Part shown: positions 20,401-38,400 of the stretch, piece by piece
How positions within the stretch are numbered: position 1 is the stretch's first letter
How the letters are laid out: each line of letters begins with the position of its first letter
Assembly: GCA_048268245.1 (NCBI GenBank)
Contig: JBLWVX010000004.1
Coordinates: 81,041 to 145,040, forward strand
From: Arcobacteraceae bacterium
GTDB lineage: Bacteria > Campylobacterota > Campylobacteria > Campylobacterales > Arcobacteraceae
Reading direction: 5' to 3'
DNA length: 64,000 nucleotides
Program-made: the position numbers

Positions 20401-23400
20401 AATAAAACTATGAACAGAAAAAACATTAGAGAGTTCGCTGCGGTTGATTTAGAGTTACCAACTTCTAAATATGAATTTGTTACAACTTTTGAAGCATTAA
20501 AACAAGCAGCTAATAATATTGGGTTCCCTTGTGTTATTAAACCTGTAATGTCTTCATCTGGTCATGGTCAAAGTATCGCAAAGTCTTCTGATGATTTAGA
20601 GAACTCATGGGAATTAGCAAAAGAAGCTAGAGGTGATGCTAGTGAATTAATTGTTGAAGAGTTTATTACATTTGATTATGAAATTACTTTACTTACAGCA
20701 AGAAATGAAAACCAAACTGTATTTTGTGAGCCAATAGGTCATATCCAACAAGATGGTGACTATATCTTCTCATGGCAACCAATGAACATGAGTGAAACTG
20801 CAAAAGAAAAATCAAAAGAAATTGCTAAAAAAATCACTAATGGTTTAGGTGGTAGAGGTATTTTTGGTGTTGAGCTTTTTGTAAAAGGTGACGAAGTTTA
20901 CTTCTCAGAAGTAAGTCCTAGACCACATGATACAGGTATGGTTACTATGATTACTCAAAGTGCTAGTGAATTTGCACTTCATGTAAGAGCTGTTTTAGGT
21001 CTTCCTTTAGATTATATTGATTATGGTTGTGGAGCTAGTGCTGCTTATAAAGCAAAAGGTGATAGCTTTAATCCAAAAGTTGATATTTTTGATTCATCAT
21101 TTACAAAAGAATCAATTATTAGAGTATTTGGGAAACCTCAATCACATGAGGGAAGAAGAATGGCAGTTGCACTTACATTTGATAAAGACTCTTCAGATAA
21201 AGCTTTACAAAAATCAAAAGAGATTATTGGAAACTTCCACGATAACTAGAGGCGAAAGCTTTTAGTTATTAGATTCTTAAATCAAAAATATACTGCATTC
21301 CACCTTTTTCATCTAATGTAGCAATATCAACAGTTCCACCTATCATCCTAGCTAGGTTTCTTGCTTCTACAATATAACTATTTGTAGAACCAGCTGTCCC
21401 TAAATACATCATGTGAATATTTTTTTCCTCAAAACCATTGTTTTTTACTATTAATTGAATACTATTTTTTGTCTGAATAATCTTTAATTCGATGAGTTTA
21501 GAAATTTTTCCTCTTTTTAACTCTTTTTTTATTAAGTCTAGACATGACTGCTCTATAAAATTTACTATTATATTTTCTAAGTATGCAATACTTAAATCAA
21601 CACTCTTTTTTAAAGTTTTTACTTGATTTTCATACTCTAAAGAGATTTTATATCTTACATTATCATAAATATAGTTATCAATTCTTCTTTTTATAATCTC
21701 AACTGGACCATCAAATTTACTTAAAGACTTTGTCTCTTTATCAAAACTATCAAAGTTATCTAAAGTCTCTTCAAATCGTTTTAGTTCTTCATATTCTAGA
21801 CTATAACTATCTATTAATTCAAATATAAATCTACTATTAATTAAATCATCCATTCCGAGTTTATTTAGATGTTTATTTAACGGTGTTGTATCAAACATAG
21901 AAATAAAGTATTTTAGAGTATAAATTTTATTTTTATAAACTGTTAAAGTATCTAAACTCTCAATTAACTCTTTTTTTTGAAGTCTTGGTAAATCCATTAA
22001 GTCTAAATCCATCATAAAAAGCTCATGGAAACTAGCATCATCATATATAAGATTTTTATCTAATTGTATATCTTTAAAACCATTTTGATCTAAAATACTT
22101 ACAGTAGTATCTCTTATATCTTCTAAAACATCTGATAGATAATCTTTAATTCTATGTATATGATTTAGAATTATTGTATGAACTTCATTATAATAATCCC
22201 TGTTTAACTTAGTCTTACCACTACTTTCAGTAGTAAACATATTATCAAATACAAAAAGGGATGTGTATTCAGGCTTTATTTTTTCAAGTTCTTCTTTTAT
22301 ATTAACAATAGATGTCTTAATTGCCAGTTCAATTTCTTTTACTTGATTATTCAAAATATCAACCTTTATAAACACTCAGGACTTGAAGAGACAAACTTGT
22401 TTAATAAAATAATCCAATTATTTTTATCATCAACAGGCATAACATCTCCTGATTTCTTTTTATAAATCGTAGCTATTTGTGCCCATTCGCCTTGTTTTGA
22501 TTTAATAGTAAATTCATCACCTTTTCTTAATACTCTTAAGATAGTAGCTTCTTCAAAAGTATCATTTCTTACATTTAAACTACTAACTTCTACTTTATAT
22601 AAACATTGATCTATATTTTTGATACTTTTTTTAACTACTGAAGCTTTTTGAAATATCTCTTTTATACTTTTGTCTTCACTATTAGCTACTTTTTTAATAG
22701 TCTGTTTTTCTTCTTTCTTTTTAATTTCTTTAGTTTTTTCTTCTTTTTTAAGATCACTTACAGAAATACCATAGTTACTTAATACAATATAGTATCCAAA
22801 TTCATCATCAAGTTTTTTATATAATTTTACAGTTTTTGTTTGAGTATTAATAGCTACTATTTTATGAGTTAATATATCATCACCTACTTTATATCGACCC
22901 TCAATATTTAAACTTTGTTCACTGTTATCACTACTAGTTTGTTTATCAAGTTTTAGCACAACAAAATTTCTACCATTAAAAGAGTACATACTTTTAATTC
23001 TAATATCTTTTAAGTTCTTTGTTCTTGTAAAGTCTGTAGTAAGTCTAGCAATTTCATTTTCATGTTTAAATACATTTTTAGCATAATCTTCGTTTGATTG
23101 AATCACTTGATTAGAAATTGTCCCTCTAGATACTGTTCCTGGAACTTGCGTAACTATTCTTTGTTTTTGTTTTTGCTGTATGTTTGATATTTGCTCTTCT
23201 AAATAGTCTTTTTCTAATCCTGTAATAGCATTAAAAAACTCTTTTGATTGTTTATCTAAAACATCAAGTTTATCGATATCATCCATACTTTTTTCTTGTG
23301 CATTAAGACTTATAAATCCTATAAATACTAAAGCAAATAATATACTTTTTTTCATTTTTTCCCTTTTCAAACTCTTACTTAAACTCAAACTCATAATTAA

Positions 23401-35400: not shown

Positions 35401-38400
35401 TATCTTTCATAGGCTCTTGCAATAGCTTCTTCTTGTTGGATAATCTTTTTTACTTTATCAACTAAAATTTTTCTTTGTTCAAAAAAATCACTATTTGCTT
35501 GTAAAAAGTTTGTTATAAAAAATAAAACTAGTATATATTTCATCATAAAAAACTCTTTAATTTGTTGTATAATTTTACATCTCTTGGACTTTGTGATTTT
35601 AAAAGTACTTCTAAAACTCTTTGTTTAAAATACTCTTCTTGTCTTTGCTTTAAAACATCAGTATCTAAAGGTAGAGTCTCACCATCTTTTGAAAAGTCTT
35701 GATACATAAGATTATATGGAATATTATCTTCAACTAATGTATCATAAGCTGTTTTAGTAATAGTTTCTATATTATATAAAGAAGCATGTATAACTTTTTG
35801 CAAAGCTTTTTGTATAGCTTCATCTTTGTATGATAAGTTTTTTTCTTCTATTCCTACATCTAATATAAGATTTTTCTTACCTGAAATTTCAACTTCACTA
35901 ACACTATTGTCATTGCCAGACTCTTTAAGTTTAGCTCTTAGAGCAAAAAGTTTTAGTTTATCTTCTTCACTTATTTGTAAAGTACCATCTTCTTGAAGTA
36001 AAGCATCATTTTGTAAATCAGCACTTGAAGTTCTATCAAGTAAAAGTAACCATTCCCAGTTACCATTTTGAGGTAATAAAGCTATAATTTCATCCCTTGA
36101 AATATTTTGTGGGTCTATGGAGTACTTGTAAGCTAAGAGTGTTTTTATATCTCTTATAATCTCATAGCTTTCTTGCATATGTTTTACATCTTGCAAGTCA
36201 CTATAAGATCTATAAGCAACAGATGCAGAAAATATGGCTACTACTGCAATAGCCGAACTTAGCCATATATTTCTTAGCATGTTTTTTTCTTTCTGTAAAA
36301 CAGATTATGGTCTTACAACTTCATTAGCTAAAAGATCATTAAAATAAATTATAAACATCCCATCAGTATCATTCCCACCATCACCATTTTCTGTAGGTAT
36401 TCTTGATGCAATTCCTAAAGCTGCCGCATCTAAAGCTCCAGCTGTTGCACTTGTTGCTTGTCTATCAAAAGTTGCAATACCTCTTAAATCAAATGCTATT
36501 TGAGTTTCCAAAAATCCTGCATTTGCAGCTAGCGTACCTTGAGATAAATCAACAAACAATCCTGGAGAAGCTCCTGCAATATTATTAACTAATGTAATTT
36601 CCATAGAATTATCAGCTCCAAAAGATATTGCTTGATACGTATTATTTGTATCTGCTTGTACTACATTTAAAGGATCTAGTTGCTCATTAACTTGCTCTGG
36701 AAAGTAGTCTCCTAATTCAATAATACCTTCTAATGTAGCTGCTGCAGTACCAGCTGTTACATCAGCACCACCTGGTACCCCAATTTGTCTTGTCGCTGCT
36801 GCTCTTTGAACACCATCTTTAATCATTCTTATTTCAGATATGGCACTTGTTTTTTGGGCCATTCCTTCAATCTTGTCACCAGTTCCTCCAAATGTTTGGA
36901 ACATATAAATCATAGCTCCAACTACTACTATTACCATTGCTATCAGTTGTGGCATTTCAATCCTTTCTGTTTATTAATTAAATTTGACATACTACCTACC
37001 TACCACCCGTTACTTAAAACTATTTATGTACTTTACACACCAAAAATCCATCACTTTTTGAACCTGAACCTGTAAATACAGCATTTGTTGTATCATAAGC
37101 ATTTAAAACATAATTAACTTCCCCAAACAAAGCTTTTTCACAGAATTCTCTCCCTACAAAGCTTTCTGAGAATCTAGCTTTACTCATCAAAGCACTATTT
37201 TTACTCATGTTTACCATAAGTGAATATGAATTATTTTTATCATCAGAGGTAGGAATTATTTGCCATTCTACGTCATCTTTATTTGGATGAGTTACAACTG
37301 TAGCCATTCCTCCTGAGTCATCAGGAATTATCTCACTTCCCTCTAGTAAAAAACCATCATCATTTAAAACTTCAAAGTTCAAAGTTGATAGACTTTCGCC
37401 TGCTTGAATATATGTATTCACATAACCATCTACTAACTCAAACATCACTTTCATCTCTTCAAGTTCTGCTTTTATAGTAGAGTCATCAGCTTCATATCTA
37501 GTAAGAATAATAATCATAGCAGATGTTACAGCGATTATTGATGCGACAAAGTAAGCCATGTATTTCCCTTACATATTTATGTTATAATTCAATTATACTA
37601 TATTTTTTTTTAAAATAACACTTAAAGTTTCCAAAAGTCATATTTTTTAGACCACTAAAAAGTTATTTATTGTTTCAATGCCACTCTAAGATTTTATATT
37701 ACGTAAATTATCCATAATTATTAGATTATTTGACAAATCTTAAATTTTGTTTAAAGTACTATTTATGAAGACAATTACGTTATACTTAGTTATTAATTAT
37801 TATTTTTATGATACAATTAATAAAATTCATTAAAAGACTTAAGAATGATTATTGAAGAAAATATTGAGAACTTTAAAATATTATTTATTGGATATGAATA
37901 TACTTATAAAAATGAACTTAATAAATTTTTAAAAACTTCTATCTCAAATATGATATTTATAAATGATGAAACTTTCGATTTTAATTCTCATATAATTCTT
38001 ATAGACAAAGATAGTTTAAAGTCAGACTTATTTTCACTAATACATAAAATCAAACAAAATGACCCATACAAATGTATTATACTTTTAACAAAAGAAATAA
38101 ATGAAAGCTTGATGTATAAAGCATTTGAATATGATGTAGACTCAATAATAAAAAAAGATGACAAAAAGGCTTTAATCAAAAAGCTAGAGTATTTTAAAAA
38201 TAAATTATCTTTAAGAAACAAAAATATCCAAAAAAGAAATATATTAGAGAATATTTTAAAAAAACAATCTGCCTTAGTTTTTCTTACAGATTTTAAAAAC
38301 ATAACATTTACATCACAATCTTTTTTAGATTTTTTTAATATATCAAATAAAGATGAACTTTTTGAAAGATATGAAAATATAAGTGATATTTTTATACCCC

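What a model noticed while it worked through the whole genome (the two positions that open the first line are those of the whole stretch)
21269..37559. Orphan 14-gene type IV filament-like machine with leaderless pilins and RCC1-propeller subunits
Fourteen co-directional genes (g00634-g00647), of which the gene tables name only one (a T2SSE-type ATPase), are kept as one block with the same order and borders in 20 of 20 other Arcobacteraceae genomes examined. I read the block as a complete, Arcobacteraceae-restricted member of the type IV filament superfamily whose parts have drifted beyond Pfam's reach: ATPase g00639, PilC/GspF-like platform g00640, PilM-like actin-fold protein g00638, a BfpB-like lipoprotein secretin g00641, a pilin-like major subunit g00646 whose near-invariant hydrophobic N-terminus starts at Met1 without a prepilin leader (no prepilin peptidase in the block), and four paralogous helix-plus-beta-domain proteins of [...]
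Evidence so far: Pfam at E<=1: T2SSE 3e-67 for g00639; only sub-threshold RCC1/WD40_RLD for g00636 and g00642 and T2SSF 0.017 for g00640; nothing meaningful for the other ten. g00642 has relatives in 39 of 184 family genomes, 9 of 22 genera. In 20 fetched loci all 14 genes have a best hit (19 of 20 for g00647), while the flanking genes g00632/3 and g00648 do not travel with them. The folds below are AlphaFold2 models on 20-21-row alignments of these orthologues, searched with Foldseek against PDB. g00640: pLDDT 82; hits PilC of the T4aP machine model 3jc8_Ca (E 3e-4, prob 1.0) and EpsF/OutF/PilC/TcpE cytoplasmic domains (prob 0.98-1.0, TM to target 0.6-0.76); three hydrophobic segments. g00641 (Cys20 in a li [...]
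(Added by a program. Inside this text positions count along the whole contig: contig position 81,041 is position 1 of the stretch shown here. "Call 12" and the like, gene names such as g00115 and contig names such as C1 are that model's own, and its searches are not shown. The text may have been shortened before it was handed on; [...] marks where a part breaks off. The agent that wrote the report below was given it as the finding of a first reader that could run no searches.)

Follow-up and report, generated by a model that had tools for sequence, protein, structure and literature searches.

The report
Pilus-like machine with leaderless pilins
A 14-gene operon found only in some Arcobacter-family bacteria looks like a type IV pilus or secretion machine, but its filament subunits start directly at the first methionine with no cleavable leader, which would break a rule thought universal for these machines.

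Summary
Fourteen tightly packed minus-strand ORFs fill window 21269-37559.

Parts supported by my own tests:
- GspE/PilB-type ATPase g639.
- Three-segment GspF-like platform g640.
- Lipoprotein secretin g641, which now has sequence support: 20 of 20 orthologues hit the MshL model.
- Six pilin-fold proteins.
  - g646 and g647 are paralogues with a near-invariant hydrophobic N-terminus. It begins at Met1 in 30 of 30 loci, with no basic leader and no acidic residue at position 5.
  - g644, g643, g642 and g636 share a pilin-fold N-terminal module behind a variable, Sec-like signal. g642 and g636 add RCC1-type propellers.

Distribution: the g646 family occurs in 40 of 184 family genomes. It was found in 0 of 377 genomes from 13 other families of the phylum.

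- Only 17 of my 20 loci keep the 14-gene order. An 8-gene compact form and a rearranged form also exist.
- purT lies next to the block in 13 of 20 loci.

Not re-tested here: g638, g637 and g635. No filament has been observed.

Verdict: a new variant of the type IV filament kind. It fails two of that superfamily's four core criteria (class III signal peptide, dedicated prepilin peptidase). Interest 0.72.

The parts
37020..37559 (-). g647, 179 aa. Leaderless pilin-fold paralogue of g646, likely a minor subunit. Hydrophobic residues 1-19, then an acidic stretch. Cys140 and Cys175 are invariant.
   Evidence: hhalign against g646: prob 95.2, E 2.7e-8, 170 columns. Invariant columns. Only 3 codons are open upstream of Met1. 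Hydrophobic segment.
36305..36955 (-). g646, 216 aa. Candidate major filament subunit with a pilin fold. The N-terminal ~33 residues are nearly invariant and start at Met1. No leader, no acidic residue before Asp27, no Cys.
   Evidence: 30 of 30 loci start with ATG, have a purine-rich ribosome-site-like stretch and a stop 1-18 codons upstream. AF2 pLDDT 84.1. VIA-wide: CofA pilus Z 6.9, TcpA 6.4, PilA1 6.2; 16 of the top 20 rows are pilins or pseudopilins. Second look: PilA1 Z 5.9-6.4 against <=3.5 for unrelated rows.
35543..36280 (-). g645, 245 aa. N-terminal hydrophobic segment 5-23 followed by long helices. Role unknown. Absent from the compact form.
   Evidence: No profile similarity to g646 or g644. 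No usable Atlas hit.
34797..35546 (-). g644, 249 aa. Variable Sec-like signal, then a pilin-fold module (residues ~19-138) and a beta-rich C-terminal part. Cys159 and Cys167 are invariant.
   Evidence: AF2 pLDDT 85.8. VIA-wide: PilA1 Z 7.9 (101 aligned, 20% identity), CofA 6.3, PilA4 6.1, EpsG 5.5, PulG 5.4; 15 of the top 17 rows are pilins or pseudopilins.
34096..34800 (-). g643, 234 aa. Full-length paralogue of g644.
   Evidence: hhalign prob 99.9, E 1.2e-32, 223 columns.
31224..34094 (-). g642, 956 aa. g644-like pilin module (1-~178), an RCC1-type propeller and a further inserted domain. Invariant C-terminal motif shared with g636.
   Evidence: hhalign against g644: prob 97.7, E 2.5e-12. 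RCC1_2 and RCC1 above Pfam cut-offs. Profile hits to solved RCC1-repeat proteins down to E 1e-8. C-terminus.
29557..31215 (-). g641, 552 aa. Lipoprotein secretin with invariant Cys20 after a signal sequence.
   Evidence: TIGR02519 MshL 4.5e-13 over residues 285-519. 20 of 20 orthologues hit MshL and 11 of 20 hit TIGR02520. Cys20 invariant.
28538..29554 (-). g640, 338 aa. GspF/PilC-like platform with three hydrophobic segments (~105-128, 159-177, 305-328).
   Evidence: T2SSF 0.017 and HofC 0.0042. T2SSF in 20 of 20 orthologues, best 5.7e-5. Hydropathy. Some relatives are named 'type II secretion system F family protein' by NCBI.
26807..28528 (-). g639, 573 aa. Extension-type ATPase of the GspE/PilB family with Walker A and a four-Cys cluster. 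The N-terminal ~165 residues match nothing.
   Evidence: T2SSE 3.4e-67. GspE 4.2e-61 and PilB 1.4e-58 in NCBIfam, both below equivalog cut-offs. Solved GspE 170 bits, PilB 169, PilT ~95, BfpD 81. Cys489/492/506/509 invariant.
26070..26819 (-). g638, 249 aa. Cytoplasmic domain (~1-178), one membrane segment (180-198) and a basic tail. Inferred ATPase tether of GspL/PilM-N type.
   Evidence: Topology. Kept in all three architectures. No family hit. Fold not re-tested here.
25579..26073 (-). g637, 164 aa. Short cytoplasmic N-terminus, membrane segment 15-33, coiled coil and a periplasmic domain. Inferred GspM/PilO-type partner.
   Evidence: Topology. Only FtsL-like coiled-coil similarity, 1e-5 and below cut-off. 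Kept in all three architectures.
23375..25582 (-). g636, 735 aa. g644-like pilin module (1-~163) and an RCC1-like propeller. Same invariant C-terminal motif as g642.
   Evidence: hhalign against g644: prob 98.2, E 4.2e-14. WD40_RLD 3.6e-11, sub-threshold. C-terminus.
22366..23406 (-). g635, 346 aa. Exported protein with a conserved central domain and a C-terminal SH3b domain. Inferred link between the inner-membrane platform, the cell wall and the secretin (GspC/PilP-like role). The likely true start is the internal MKKSILF.
   Evidence: SH3_3 in 17 of 18 orthologues, best 1.2e-9. Solved SH3b-type domain 5e-4. A short form without SH3 is kept in the compact variant.
21269..22375 (-). g634, 368 aa. 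Cytoplasmic. The C-terminal ~120 residues resemble a histidine-kinase-type ATP-binding domain that lacks the second glycine box. Possible regulator. Absent from the compact form.
   Evidence: hhalign of A13 against 6 of the genome's own HATPase_c domains: prob 88.6, E 2.6e-6, 111 columns. Nothing in Pfam.

Best explanation
The block encodes an envelope-spanning machine of the type IV filament kind, on the GspE/PilB (type II secretion, type IVa and MSHA) side of that superfamily.

Shown:
- It has an ATPase, a three-segment platform and a lipoprotein secretin.
- It has six pilin-fold proteins.
- Two of these, g646 and g647, begin at Met1 with a conserved hydrophobic helix and no leader.

Inferred:
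- g646 and g647 insert into the inner membrane N-in/C-out as signal anchors.
- The hexameric ATPase g639 is held at the membrane by the bitopic pair g638/g637 and drives the platform g640. The platform lifts g646 subunits out of the membrane into a helical filament whose core is the invariant N-terminal helix.
- The filament leaves through the secretin g641. g635 ties the secretin to the inner-membrane complex and, through its SH3b domain, to the cell wall.
- Because the subunits carry no leader, no prepilin peptidase step is needed. After removal of Met1 the N-terminus would be Pro or Ala.
- g644, g643, g642 and g636 are exported by Sec. They use their pilin-like modules to join or cap the filament and so present RCC1-type propellers as adhesins.
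- The likely biological role is attachment to surfaces or hosts. This fits an accessory trait that is often lost.
For: Machinery.

Pilin fold:
- g646 model, pLDDT 84. In a search of 48,161 chains, 16 of the top 20 rows are pilins or pseudopilins, led by whole-filament subunits CofA (Z 6.9, 159 aligned, model residues 2-206) and TcpA (Z 6.4).
- PilA1 chains at Z 5.9-6.4 stand clear of unrelated rows at <=3.5.
- g644: 15 of the top 17 rows are pilins, best Z 7.9.
- g647 is a paralogue of g646.

No leader:
- 30 of 30 loci have ATG, a ribosome-site-like stretch and a stop 1-18 codons upstream.
- All 34 library relatives that include profile position 1 begin at their own residue 1.
- g647 has 3 open codons upstream.
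- The genome's ordinary prepilins carry basic leaders and Glu at mature position 5, for example MKKS then FSLMEV.

Pilin-like conservation pattern:
- The first ~33 residues of g646 are nearly invariant, while the rest is 45-54% identical between genera.
- Machinery proteins are 70-81% identical between genera, pilin-fold proteins 36-51%.

Core set: the same eight genes (g647, g646, g641, g640, g639, g638, g637, g635) persist in the compact and the rearranged forms.

Modular pilins with grafted adhesive domains are a known design (PMC10191384, passages read).
Against: - No filament has been seen.
- All fold Z-scores are below 8, where the tool warns that a match may be only a common arrangement. 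Foldseek E-values are not significant (0.25-0.5 for g646; nothing for g644).
- No sequence or profile link to any pilin family.
- g644 and g646 profiles do not match each other (prob 0.2).
- g646 lacks the Glu5 that, according to the review, neutralises the neighbouring subunit's N-terminal amine in known filaments.
- The four Sec-type proteins would lose their hydrophobic helix if signal peptidase I cuts them, so how they would join a filament is unclear.
- The roles of g638, g637 and g635 rest on topology and position only.
- The ATPase ORF looks shortened in 2 of 17 full loci.
- Prepilin peptidases exist elsewhere in 181 of 184 family genomes, so action in trans on some subunit cannot be excluded.
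Confidence: 0.6

Rival explanations
1. It is a type II secretion-like exporter. g646 and g647 build only a short periplasmic endopilus that pushes the four Sec-exported proteins (g644, g643, g642, g636) out through the secretin. Their pilin-like N-terminal modules serve as docking or secretion signals rather than as filament subunits.
For: - The ATPase scores highest with GspE (NCBIfam 207 bits; solved GspE 170 bits).
- There is a C/L/M-like trio of bitopic and exported proteins (g635, g638, g637; topology).
- No retraction ATPase lies in the block.
- The four proteins have variable N-termini of Sec type.
- From recall: type IVb systems secrete TcpF and CofJ via the pilus tip. A CofB entry in complex with a CofJ peptide appears.
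Against: - g646 evolves fast outside its N-terminus (45-54% identity between genera, against 70-81% for the machinery). This is more like an exposed pilin than a hidden endopilin.
- In the compact form the extra domain is fused to a g647-type leaderless anchor, not to a Sec signal. That points to display on a filament.
Confidence: 0.25
2. It is an ordinary type IV system after all. The subunits are processed, either by signal peptidase I after the Gly-Gly at residues 23-24 of g646 or by one of the genome's A24 peptidases acting in trans. 'Leaderless' would then be a misreading of an unusual signal.
For: - A24 peptidases occur on C16 and C3 and in 181 of 184 family genomes.
- The g646 model has a helix break and pLDDT below 50 at residues 20-23.
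Against: - Signal peptides normally vary, yet residues 1-33 of g646 are nearly invariant across genera.
- There is no Gly/Ala followed by the hydrophobic-Glu5 motif of the genome's own prepilins.
- Nothing lies upstream of Met1 for an A24 enzyme to remove.
Confidence: 0.1
3. It is a DNA-uptake (competence) or other non-adhesive type IV machine.
For: Type IV filament machines serve DNA uptake in many bacteria (PMC10191384, abstract and passages).
Against: - No DNA-binding or channel protein was recognised in the block.
- The genome has a separate cluster with ATPase, secretin and ordinary prepilins on C24.
- Large propeller proteins suggest binding to ligands or surfaces.
Confidence: 0.05

Closest known systems
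Type II secretion system (Gsp/Eps/Pul)
   Same: - GspE is the best-scoring ATPase relative.
- GspF-like platform.
- Outer-membrane secretin.
- Bitopic L/M-like and exported C-like proteins by topology.
- No retraction ATPase.
- EpsG and PulG are among the fold matches of g644.
   Different: - No class III signal peptides, no Glu5 and no peptidase gene in the block.
- The secretin is a lipoprotein that misses the Pfam Secretin model at E <= 0.001.
- The ATPase is far below the GspE equivalog cut-off (207 against 630 bits).
- The pilin-fold subunit is ~200 aa and variable.
Type IVb pili (toxin co-regulated pilus, CFA/III, bundle-forming pilus, R64 thin pilus)
   Same: - The best fold matches of g646 are the whole-filament subunits CofA and TcpA and the minor pilins TcpB and CofB.
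- Lipoprotein secretin, with the PilN type IVB family model hit in 11 of 20 orthologues.
- Large minor subunits with extra C-terminal domains.
   Different: - From recall: type IVb prepilins have long leaders. Here there is none.
- The ATPase resembles BfpD much less than GspE or PilB (81 against 170 bits).
- No peptidase gene in the operon.
MSHA pilus (Msh) system
   Same: The secretin's best family is MshL, in 20 of 20 orthologues. The ATPase is of the same broad branch.
   Different: - The MshL score is 48.9 bits against a cut-off of 250.
- No N-terminal cyclic-di-GMP-binding domain was recognised in the ATPase.
- No N-methyl pilins.
Modular pilins (Streptococcus sanguinis PilB and PilC) and the tip protein PilY1
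   Same: A pilin module carries a grafted binding domain (PMC10191384, passages; the PilB preprint 10.1101/2021.01.27.428410 was seen as a search listing and abstract only). From recall: PilY1 carries a beta-propeller.
   Different: - The grafted domain here is an RCC1-type propeller.
- The pilin module sits behind a Sec-like signal instead of a class III signal.
- There are four paralogues in one operon.

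Membership tests
Type IV filament superfamily (four core proteins, per PMC10191384) | Extension ATPase of the PilB/GspE family | tested here: met
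   T2SSE 3.4e-67. Solved GspE and PilB about 1e-48. Walker A and the four-Cys cluster are invariant.
Type IV filament superfamily (four core proteins, per PMC10191384) | Polytopic platform protein of the PilC/GspF family | tested here: met
   T2SSF hit in 20 of 20 orthologues at E <= 0.1, best 5.7e-5. The window's own protein is below cut-off (15.6 against 25.2 bits). HofC 0.0042. Three hydrophobic segments. The gene lies next to the ATPase.
Type IV filament superfamily (four core proteins, per PMC10191384) | Type 4 pilins: class III signal peptide (short basic leader, cleavage site, hydrophobic helix with Glu5) on a pilin fold | tested here: not met
   The fold is pilin-like. However, g646 and g647 start at Met1 with no leader and no Glu5. 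The other four have variable Sec-like N-termini. No N_methyl match lies on this contig.
Type IV filament superfamily (four core proteins, per PMC10191384) | Prepilin peptidase (Peptidase_A24) | tested here: not met
   None in the block. The genome's two copies lie on C16 and C3. Whether either acts on this system is not testable here.
Secretin family (diderm type IV filament and type II secretion systems) | C-terminal secretin domain | tested here: met
   TIGR02519 in 20 of 20 orthologues, best 2.5e-14, and TIGR02520 in 11 of 20. All are below equivalog cut-offs. The Pfam Secretin model did not reach E <= 0.001 on this contig.
Type II secretion system | GspG-K pseudopilins with N-methylation signal, plus the GspO peptidase | tested here: not met
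   T2SSG and N_methyl hits lie only on other contigs. No A24 in the block.
Type II secretion system | GspC, GspL and GspM assembly-platform proteins | tested here: inconclusive
   g635, g638 and g637 have fitting topologies but no family or profile match. Folds were not predicted here.
Type IVb pilus | Type IVb major pilin: large globular domain and a long leader | tested here: inconclusive
   Fold and size are closest to CofA and TcpA (Z 6.9 and 6.4). There is no leader at all. That type IVb leaders are long is recalled, not from a call.
Type IVb pilus | BfpD/TcpT-type ATPase | tested here: not met
   BfpD scores 80.8 bits against 170 for GspE and 169 for PilB.
MSHA pilus | MshL equivalog secretin and an MshE ATPase with an N-terminal cyclic-di-GMP-binding domain | tested here: not met
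   MshL scores 48.9 bits against a cut-off of 250.2. Residues 1-165 of the ATPase match no family or solved chain.
RCC1-like repeat propellers | RCC1 repeats | tested here: met
   g642: RCC1_2 31.8 bits (cut-off 22) and RCC1 29.9 bits (cut-off 21.7). Solved RCC1-repeat proteins, RPGR and HERC2 at 1e-8 to 1e-6. g636 gives only sub-threshold hits.

The most novel reading that the evidence does not exclude
This is a lineage of type IV filament machines that has dispensed with the prepilin peptidase. Its subunits are made 'pre-processed': after Met1 is removed, a Pro or Ala N-terminus stands in for the cleaved, N-methylated residue, and there is no Glu5 salt bridge. A second class of pilin-fold proteins reaches the periplasm by Sec and uses a headless pilin module to dock RCC1 propellers onto, or be expelled by, the filament. 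If so, neither leader cleavage nor Glu5 is essential to filament assembly, and pilin mimicry can serve as a loading signal.
Probability: 0.4. Interest if true: 0.85.

Novelty: new variant of a known kind. Interest (0 to 1): 0.72.

Why it matters
A recent review (PMC10191384, passages read) states that pilin, prepilin peptidase, extension ATPase and platform are the four proteins found in every type IV filament system. It also states that Glu5 pairs with the neighbouring subunit's N-terminal amine.

A natural system whose pilin-fold subunits have no leader and no Glu5 would be a ready-made test of what those two features are really for. It would also widen the rules that genome-mining tools use to find such machines: Pfam recognises only one of these 14 proteins firmly.

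The RCC1-propeller pilin fusions add a new kind of grafted domain. The host family includes bacteria found in animals, seafood and wastewater, so a variable, frequently lost adhesion organelle may bear on niche choice.

Tried and rejected
- Profile searches of the g646, g641, g640, g638 and g637 alignments against solved-structure sequences gave nothing meaningful.
- Foldseek against PDB gave no significant match for g646. The top four rows were PilA1 pilin chains at E 0.25-0.54. For g644 there was none either; a gonococcal pilin appeared only at rank 38.
- PHROGs: nothing apart from one 17-residue match.
- Atlas: for g646 only its own Campylobacterota clusters, with N_methyl and R64-type PilM clusters as weak leads at 0.90. 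For g645 there was no usable hit.
- The promoter and terminator scan was no richer than shuffles (122 against 113; 2 against 2.5). The one hairpin after g646 (36254-36236) lies inside g645 coding sequence, so I do not count it.
- Peptidase_A24 is in 181 of 184 family genomes, so its presence cannot discriminate.
- PilM_2 searched in 41 family genomes found only FtsA-sized proteins and nothing in the block.
- Word-indexed searches with g640 and the g644 alignment found only close relatives, named hypothetical or 'type II secretion system F family'. The second scored only 8000 candidates.
- RNA evidence: 10 runs held small shares of the stretch. Contigs from two oyster metatranscriptome runs, one seawater transcriptome run and one wastewater 'RNA?' run cover scattered parts of the block. 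In two of the runs a single contig spans g647 and the conserved 5' end of g646. These are contigs from relatives and may include DNA, so they show neither transcription nor level.
There is no result either way.
- Earlier notes of this scan: three look-ups, nothing.
- Literature searches found no description of this system: (Arcobacter, type IV pilus, secretin: 2 papers, irrelevant; type IV filament, leaderless, pilin: 0). Subscription journals are not covered.

Full report
**The block**

The coordinates in the finding are window coordinates. One search lists 14 minus-strand ORFs from 37559 down to 21269. Neighbours overlap by 4-32 bases or lie 1-64 bases apart, and GC skew is negative throughout. 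The block therefore reads as one operon.

It sits between a divergently transcribed GGDEF gene (37845-39095) followed by a dCache-GGDEF-EAL gene, and a convergent purT-like gene (20080-21249).

**Machinery**

- ATPase g639. It matches T2SSE at 3.4e-67. It scores best with GspE and PilB in NCBIfam, at 207 and 199 bits, far below the equivalog cut-offs. Among solved chains, GspE scores 170 bits, PilB 169, PilT about 95 and BfpD 81. Walker A and four cysteines are invariant. The first ~165 residues match nothing.
- Platform g640. It reaches only T2SSF 0.017 on its own. However, 20 of 20 orthologues hit T2SSF (best 5.7e-5), HofC scores 0.0042, and there are three hydrophobic segments.
- Secretin g641. 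It matches the MshL secretin model at 4.5e-13 over residues 285-519, in 20 of 20 orthologues. The type IVB PilN-family lipoprotein secretin model matches in 11 of 20. Cys20 after the signal sequence is invariant.

**Pilin-fold proteins**

- I built 17-21-row alignments from loci fetched.
- The AF2 model of g646 (pLDDT 84.1, pTM 0.79) has helices 2-22 and 25-54, followed by an alpha/beta domain.
- Foldseek gave only non-significant hits, although the top four were C. difficile PilA1 pilin chains.
- The Foldseek-independent search of 48,161 chains put pilins or pseudopilins in 16 of the top 20 rows. These were led by the ETEC type IVb pilus subunit (Z 6.9, rmsd 5.3, 159 aligned, model residues 2-206), TcpA (Z 6.4), PilA1 (Z 6.2) and TcpB (Z 5.5).
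- In the second look, PilA1 chains at Z 5.9-6.4 stand clear of unrelated rows at <=3.5.
- All Z-scores are below 8, so each alone is weak. The weight lies in the near-exclusive pilin content of the lists.
- g647 is a paralogue of g646 (hhalign prob 95.2, E 2.7e-8).
- g644 (model pLDDT 85.8) matches pilins over residues 1-138. PilA1 scores Z 7.9 with 20% identity, followed by CofA, PilA4, EpsG, PulG and TcpA. Fifteen of the top 17 rows are pilins or pseudopilins.
- g643 is a full-length paralogue of g644 (E 1.2e-32).
- The N-terminal ~170 residues of g642 and g636 are the same module (E 2.5e-12 and 4.2e-14).
- g642 carries RCC1 repeats above Pfam cut-offs and hits solved RCC1-type propellers.
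- Both large proteins end in the same invariant motif.

**No leader**

- In 30 of 30 loci, g646 starts at an ATG preceded by a purine-rich ribosome-site-like stretch, with a stop 1-18 codons upstream. All 30 begin with the same seven residues.
- A profile search of 1.84 billion representatives found only 40 relatives. All 34 that include profile position 1 start at their own residue 1.
- g647 has three open codons upstream.
- Residues 1-33 of g646 are nearly invariant, while the rest is about half identical between genera.
- The same genome's ordinary prepilins have basic leaders and Glu at mature position 5. All of them lie on other contigs.
- There is no A24 peptidase in the block.
- If Met1 is removed, which I infer from the recalled specificity of methionine aminopeptidase, the mature sequence would start Pro-Gln-Leu-Ile-Ala. 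That is in register with Phe-Thr/Ser-Leu-Leu/Met-Glu of the host's pilins, but without the acid.
- The four g644-type proteins have variable, Sec-like N-termini. Whether these are cleaved is not known.

**Distribution and architectures**

- g646 relatives occur in 40 of 184 family genomes and 10 of 22 genera. They occur in 0 of 377 sampled genomes from 13 other families of the phylum.
- Named relatives of g640 and g644 are all from Arcobacter, Aliarcobacter, Malaciobacter and Poseidonibacter.
- Of my 20 loci, 17 keep all 14 genes in order.
- Two loci (L053, L055) have a compact form: g647, g646, secretin, platform, ATPase, g638, g637 and a short g635. Next to it lies a longer g647-type protein with the same leaderless N-terminus.
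- One genome (L054/L095) has a rearranged, much more divergent set, with the machinery first and then the pilin-fold genes and two RCC1-type proteins.
- The eight genes common to all three forms are the core. g645-g642, g636 and g634 are an accessory module.
- Machinery proteins are 70-81% identical between genera, pilin-fold proteins 36-51%.
- purT adjoins the block in 13 of 20 loci. In one genome without the block, a lone g647 homologue sits 280 bases from purT. This looks like a deletion scar and argues for inheritance with repeated loss.

**Other parts**

- g638 (cytoplasmic domain, one membrane segment), g637 (bitopic with a coiled coil) and g635 (exported, SH3b in 17 of 18 orthologues) have the topologies of the L/M/C or PilM-N/O/P partners. 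They have no family match, and I could not fold them.
- The resemblance of g635's central domain to PilP/GspC is my recollection of those families, not a test.
- The C-terminus of g634 resembles a histidine-kinase ATP-binding domain that lacks the second glycine box (prob 88.6).
- g645 remains unexplained.

**Comparison with known systems**

The review PMC10191384 (passages read) names four proteins found in every type IV filament system: pilin, prepilin peptidase, extension ATPase and platform. It also describes the Glu5 to N-terminal-amine salt bridge.

This block meets the ATPase and platform criteria and has pilin folds and a secretin. It fails the class III signal peptide and peptidase criteria. 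I therefore describe it as working like a type IV filament machine but as a new variant, not a plain member.

It mixes traits: a GspE/PilB-like ATPase, an MshL- or type IVB-like lipoprotein secretin, a type IVb-sized pilin fold, and modular pilin-like adhesins.

**Weak points**

- No filament has been observed.
- Fold scores are moderate.
- There is no Glu5.
- It is unclear how headless pilin modules would join a filament.
- Three machine parts are untested.
- RNA-library contigs cannot show expression.
- The complex prediction never ran.
- Four literature searches found no description of this system. Journals outside the library were not searched.

Noticed in passing
L096 (G001:C1:159500-167500), positions 595-2669: This genome has no g646 match. 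Even so, its purT homologue (89% identical) is followed 280 bases later by a lone convergent g647 homologue (207 aa, 46% identical to the window's). It sits in the same place as the block, with g646 to g634 missing, and is probably a deletion scar.
   Followed up: partly
L053 854-9512; L055 10209-19052: Compact 8-gene form of the system, without g645-g642, g636 and g634. Next to it are a small 119-123 aa ORF and a 373-458 aa protein with a g647-type leaderless N-terminus and an extra C-terminal domain.
   Followed up: partly
L054 12612-19081 and L095 1-7613 (one genome): Rearranged, divergent sister system in the order secretin, platform, ATPase, 267 aa, g637-like, 353 aa, g647-like, g646-like, 188 aa, then two large proteins with the g644-type module. 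The machinery is only 31-45% identical to the window's.
   Followed up: partly
window 37845-41422 (+): A GGDEF diguanylate cyclase gene is transcribed divergently from the operon, followed by a dCache-GGDEF-EAL gene. This neighbourhood recurs in only 2 of 20 loci, so any cyclic-di-GMP control would be local to this lineage.
   Followed up: no
window 31224-31270 and 23375-23420 (C-termini of g642 and g636): Both RCC1-type proteins end in the same invariant ~15-residue aromatic and glycine-rich motif ending Phe-x-Phe-Lys. It could be the closing strand of the propeller or a sorting or docking signal.
   Followed up: no
L045 10044-11363; L061 10761 onward: In 2 of 17 full loci the ATPase ORF is shortened or starts late. 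This may be a frameshift, a pseudogene or a sequencing error. I left both out of the ATPase alignment.
   Followed up: no
window 21269-22375 (g634): The last gene of the operon encodes a cytoplasmic protein. Its C-terminus resembles a histidine-kinase ATP-binding domain but lacks the second glycine box (hhalign prob 88.6 against 6 of the genome's own kinase domains).
   Followed up: partly
own genome, contigs C24, C11, C3, C31, C44: The genome holds at least three other T2SSE ATPases and four Pfam-recognised secretins. These include a Tad-like cluster on C3 (small A24 peptidase, ATPase, secretin) and a cluster with ordinary prepilins on C24.
   Followed up: no
own genome C8:10560-10865 and C15:53239-53598: Two HATPase_c matches contain an in-frame stop, one TAA and one TAG. 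They may be broken sensor-kinase genes.
   Followed up: no
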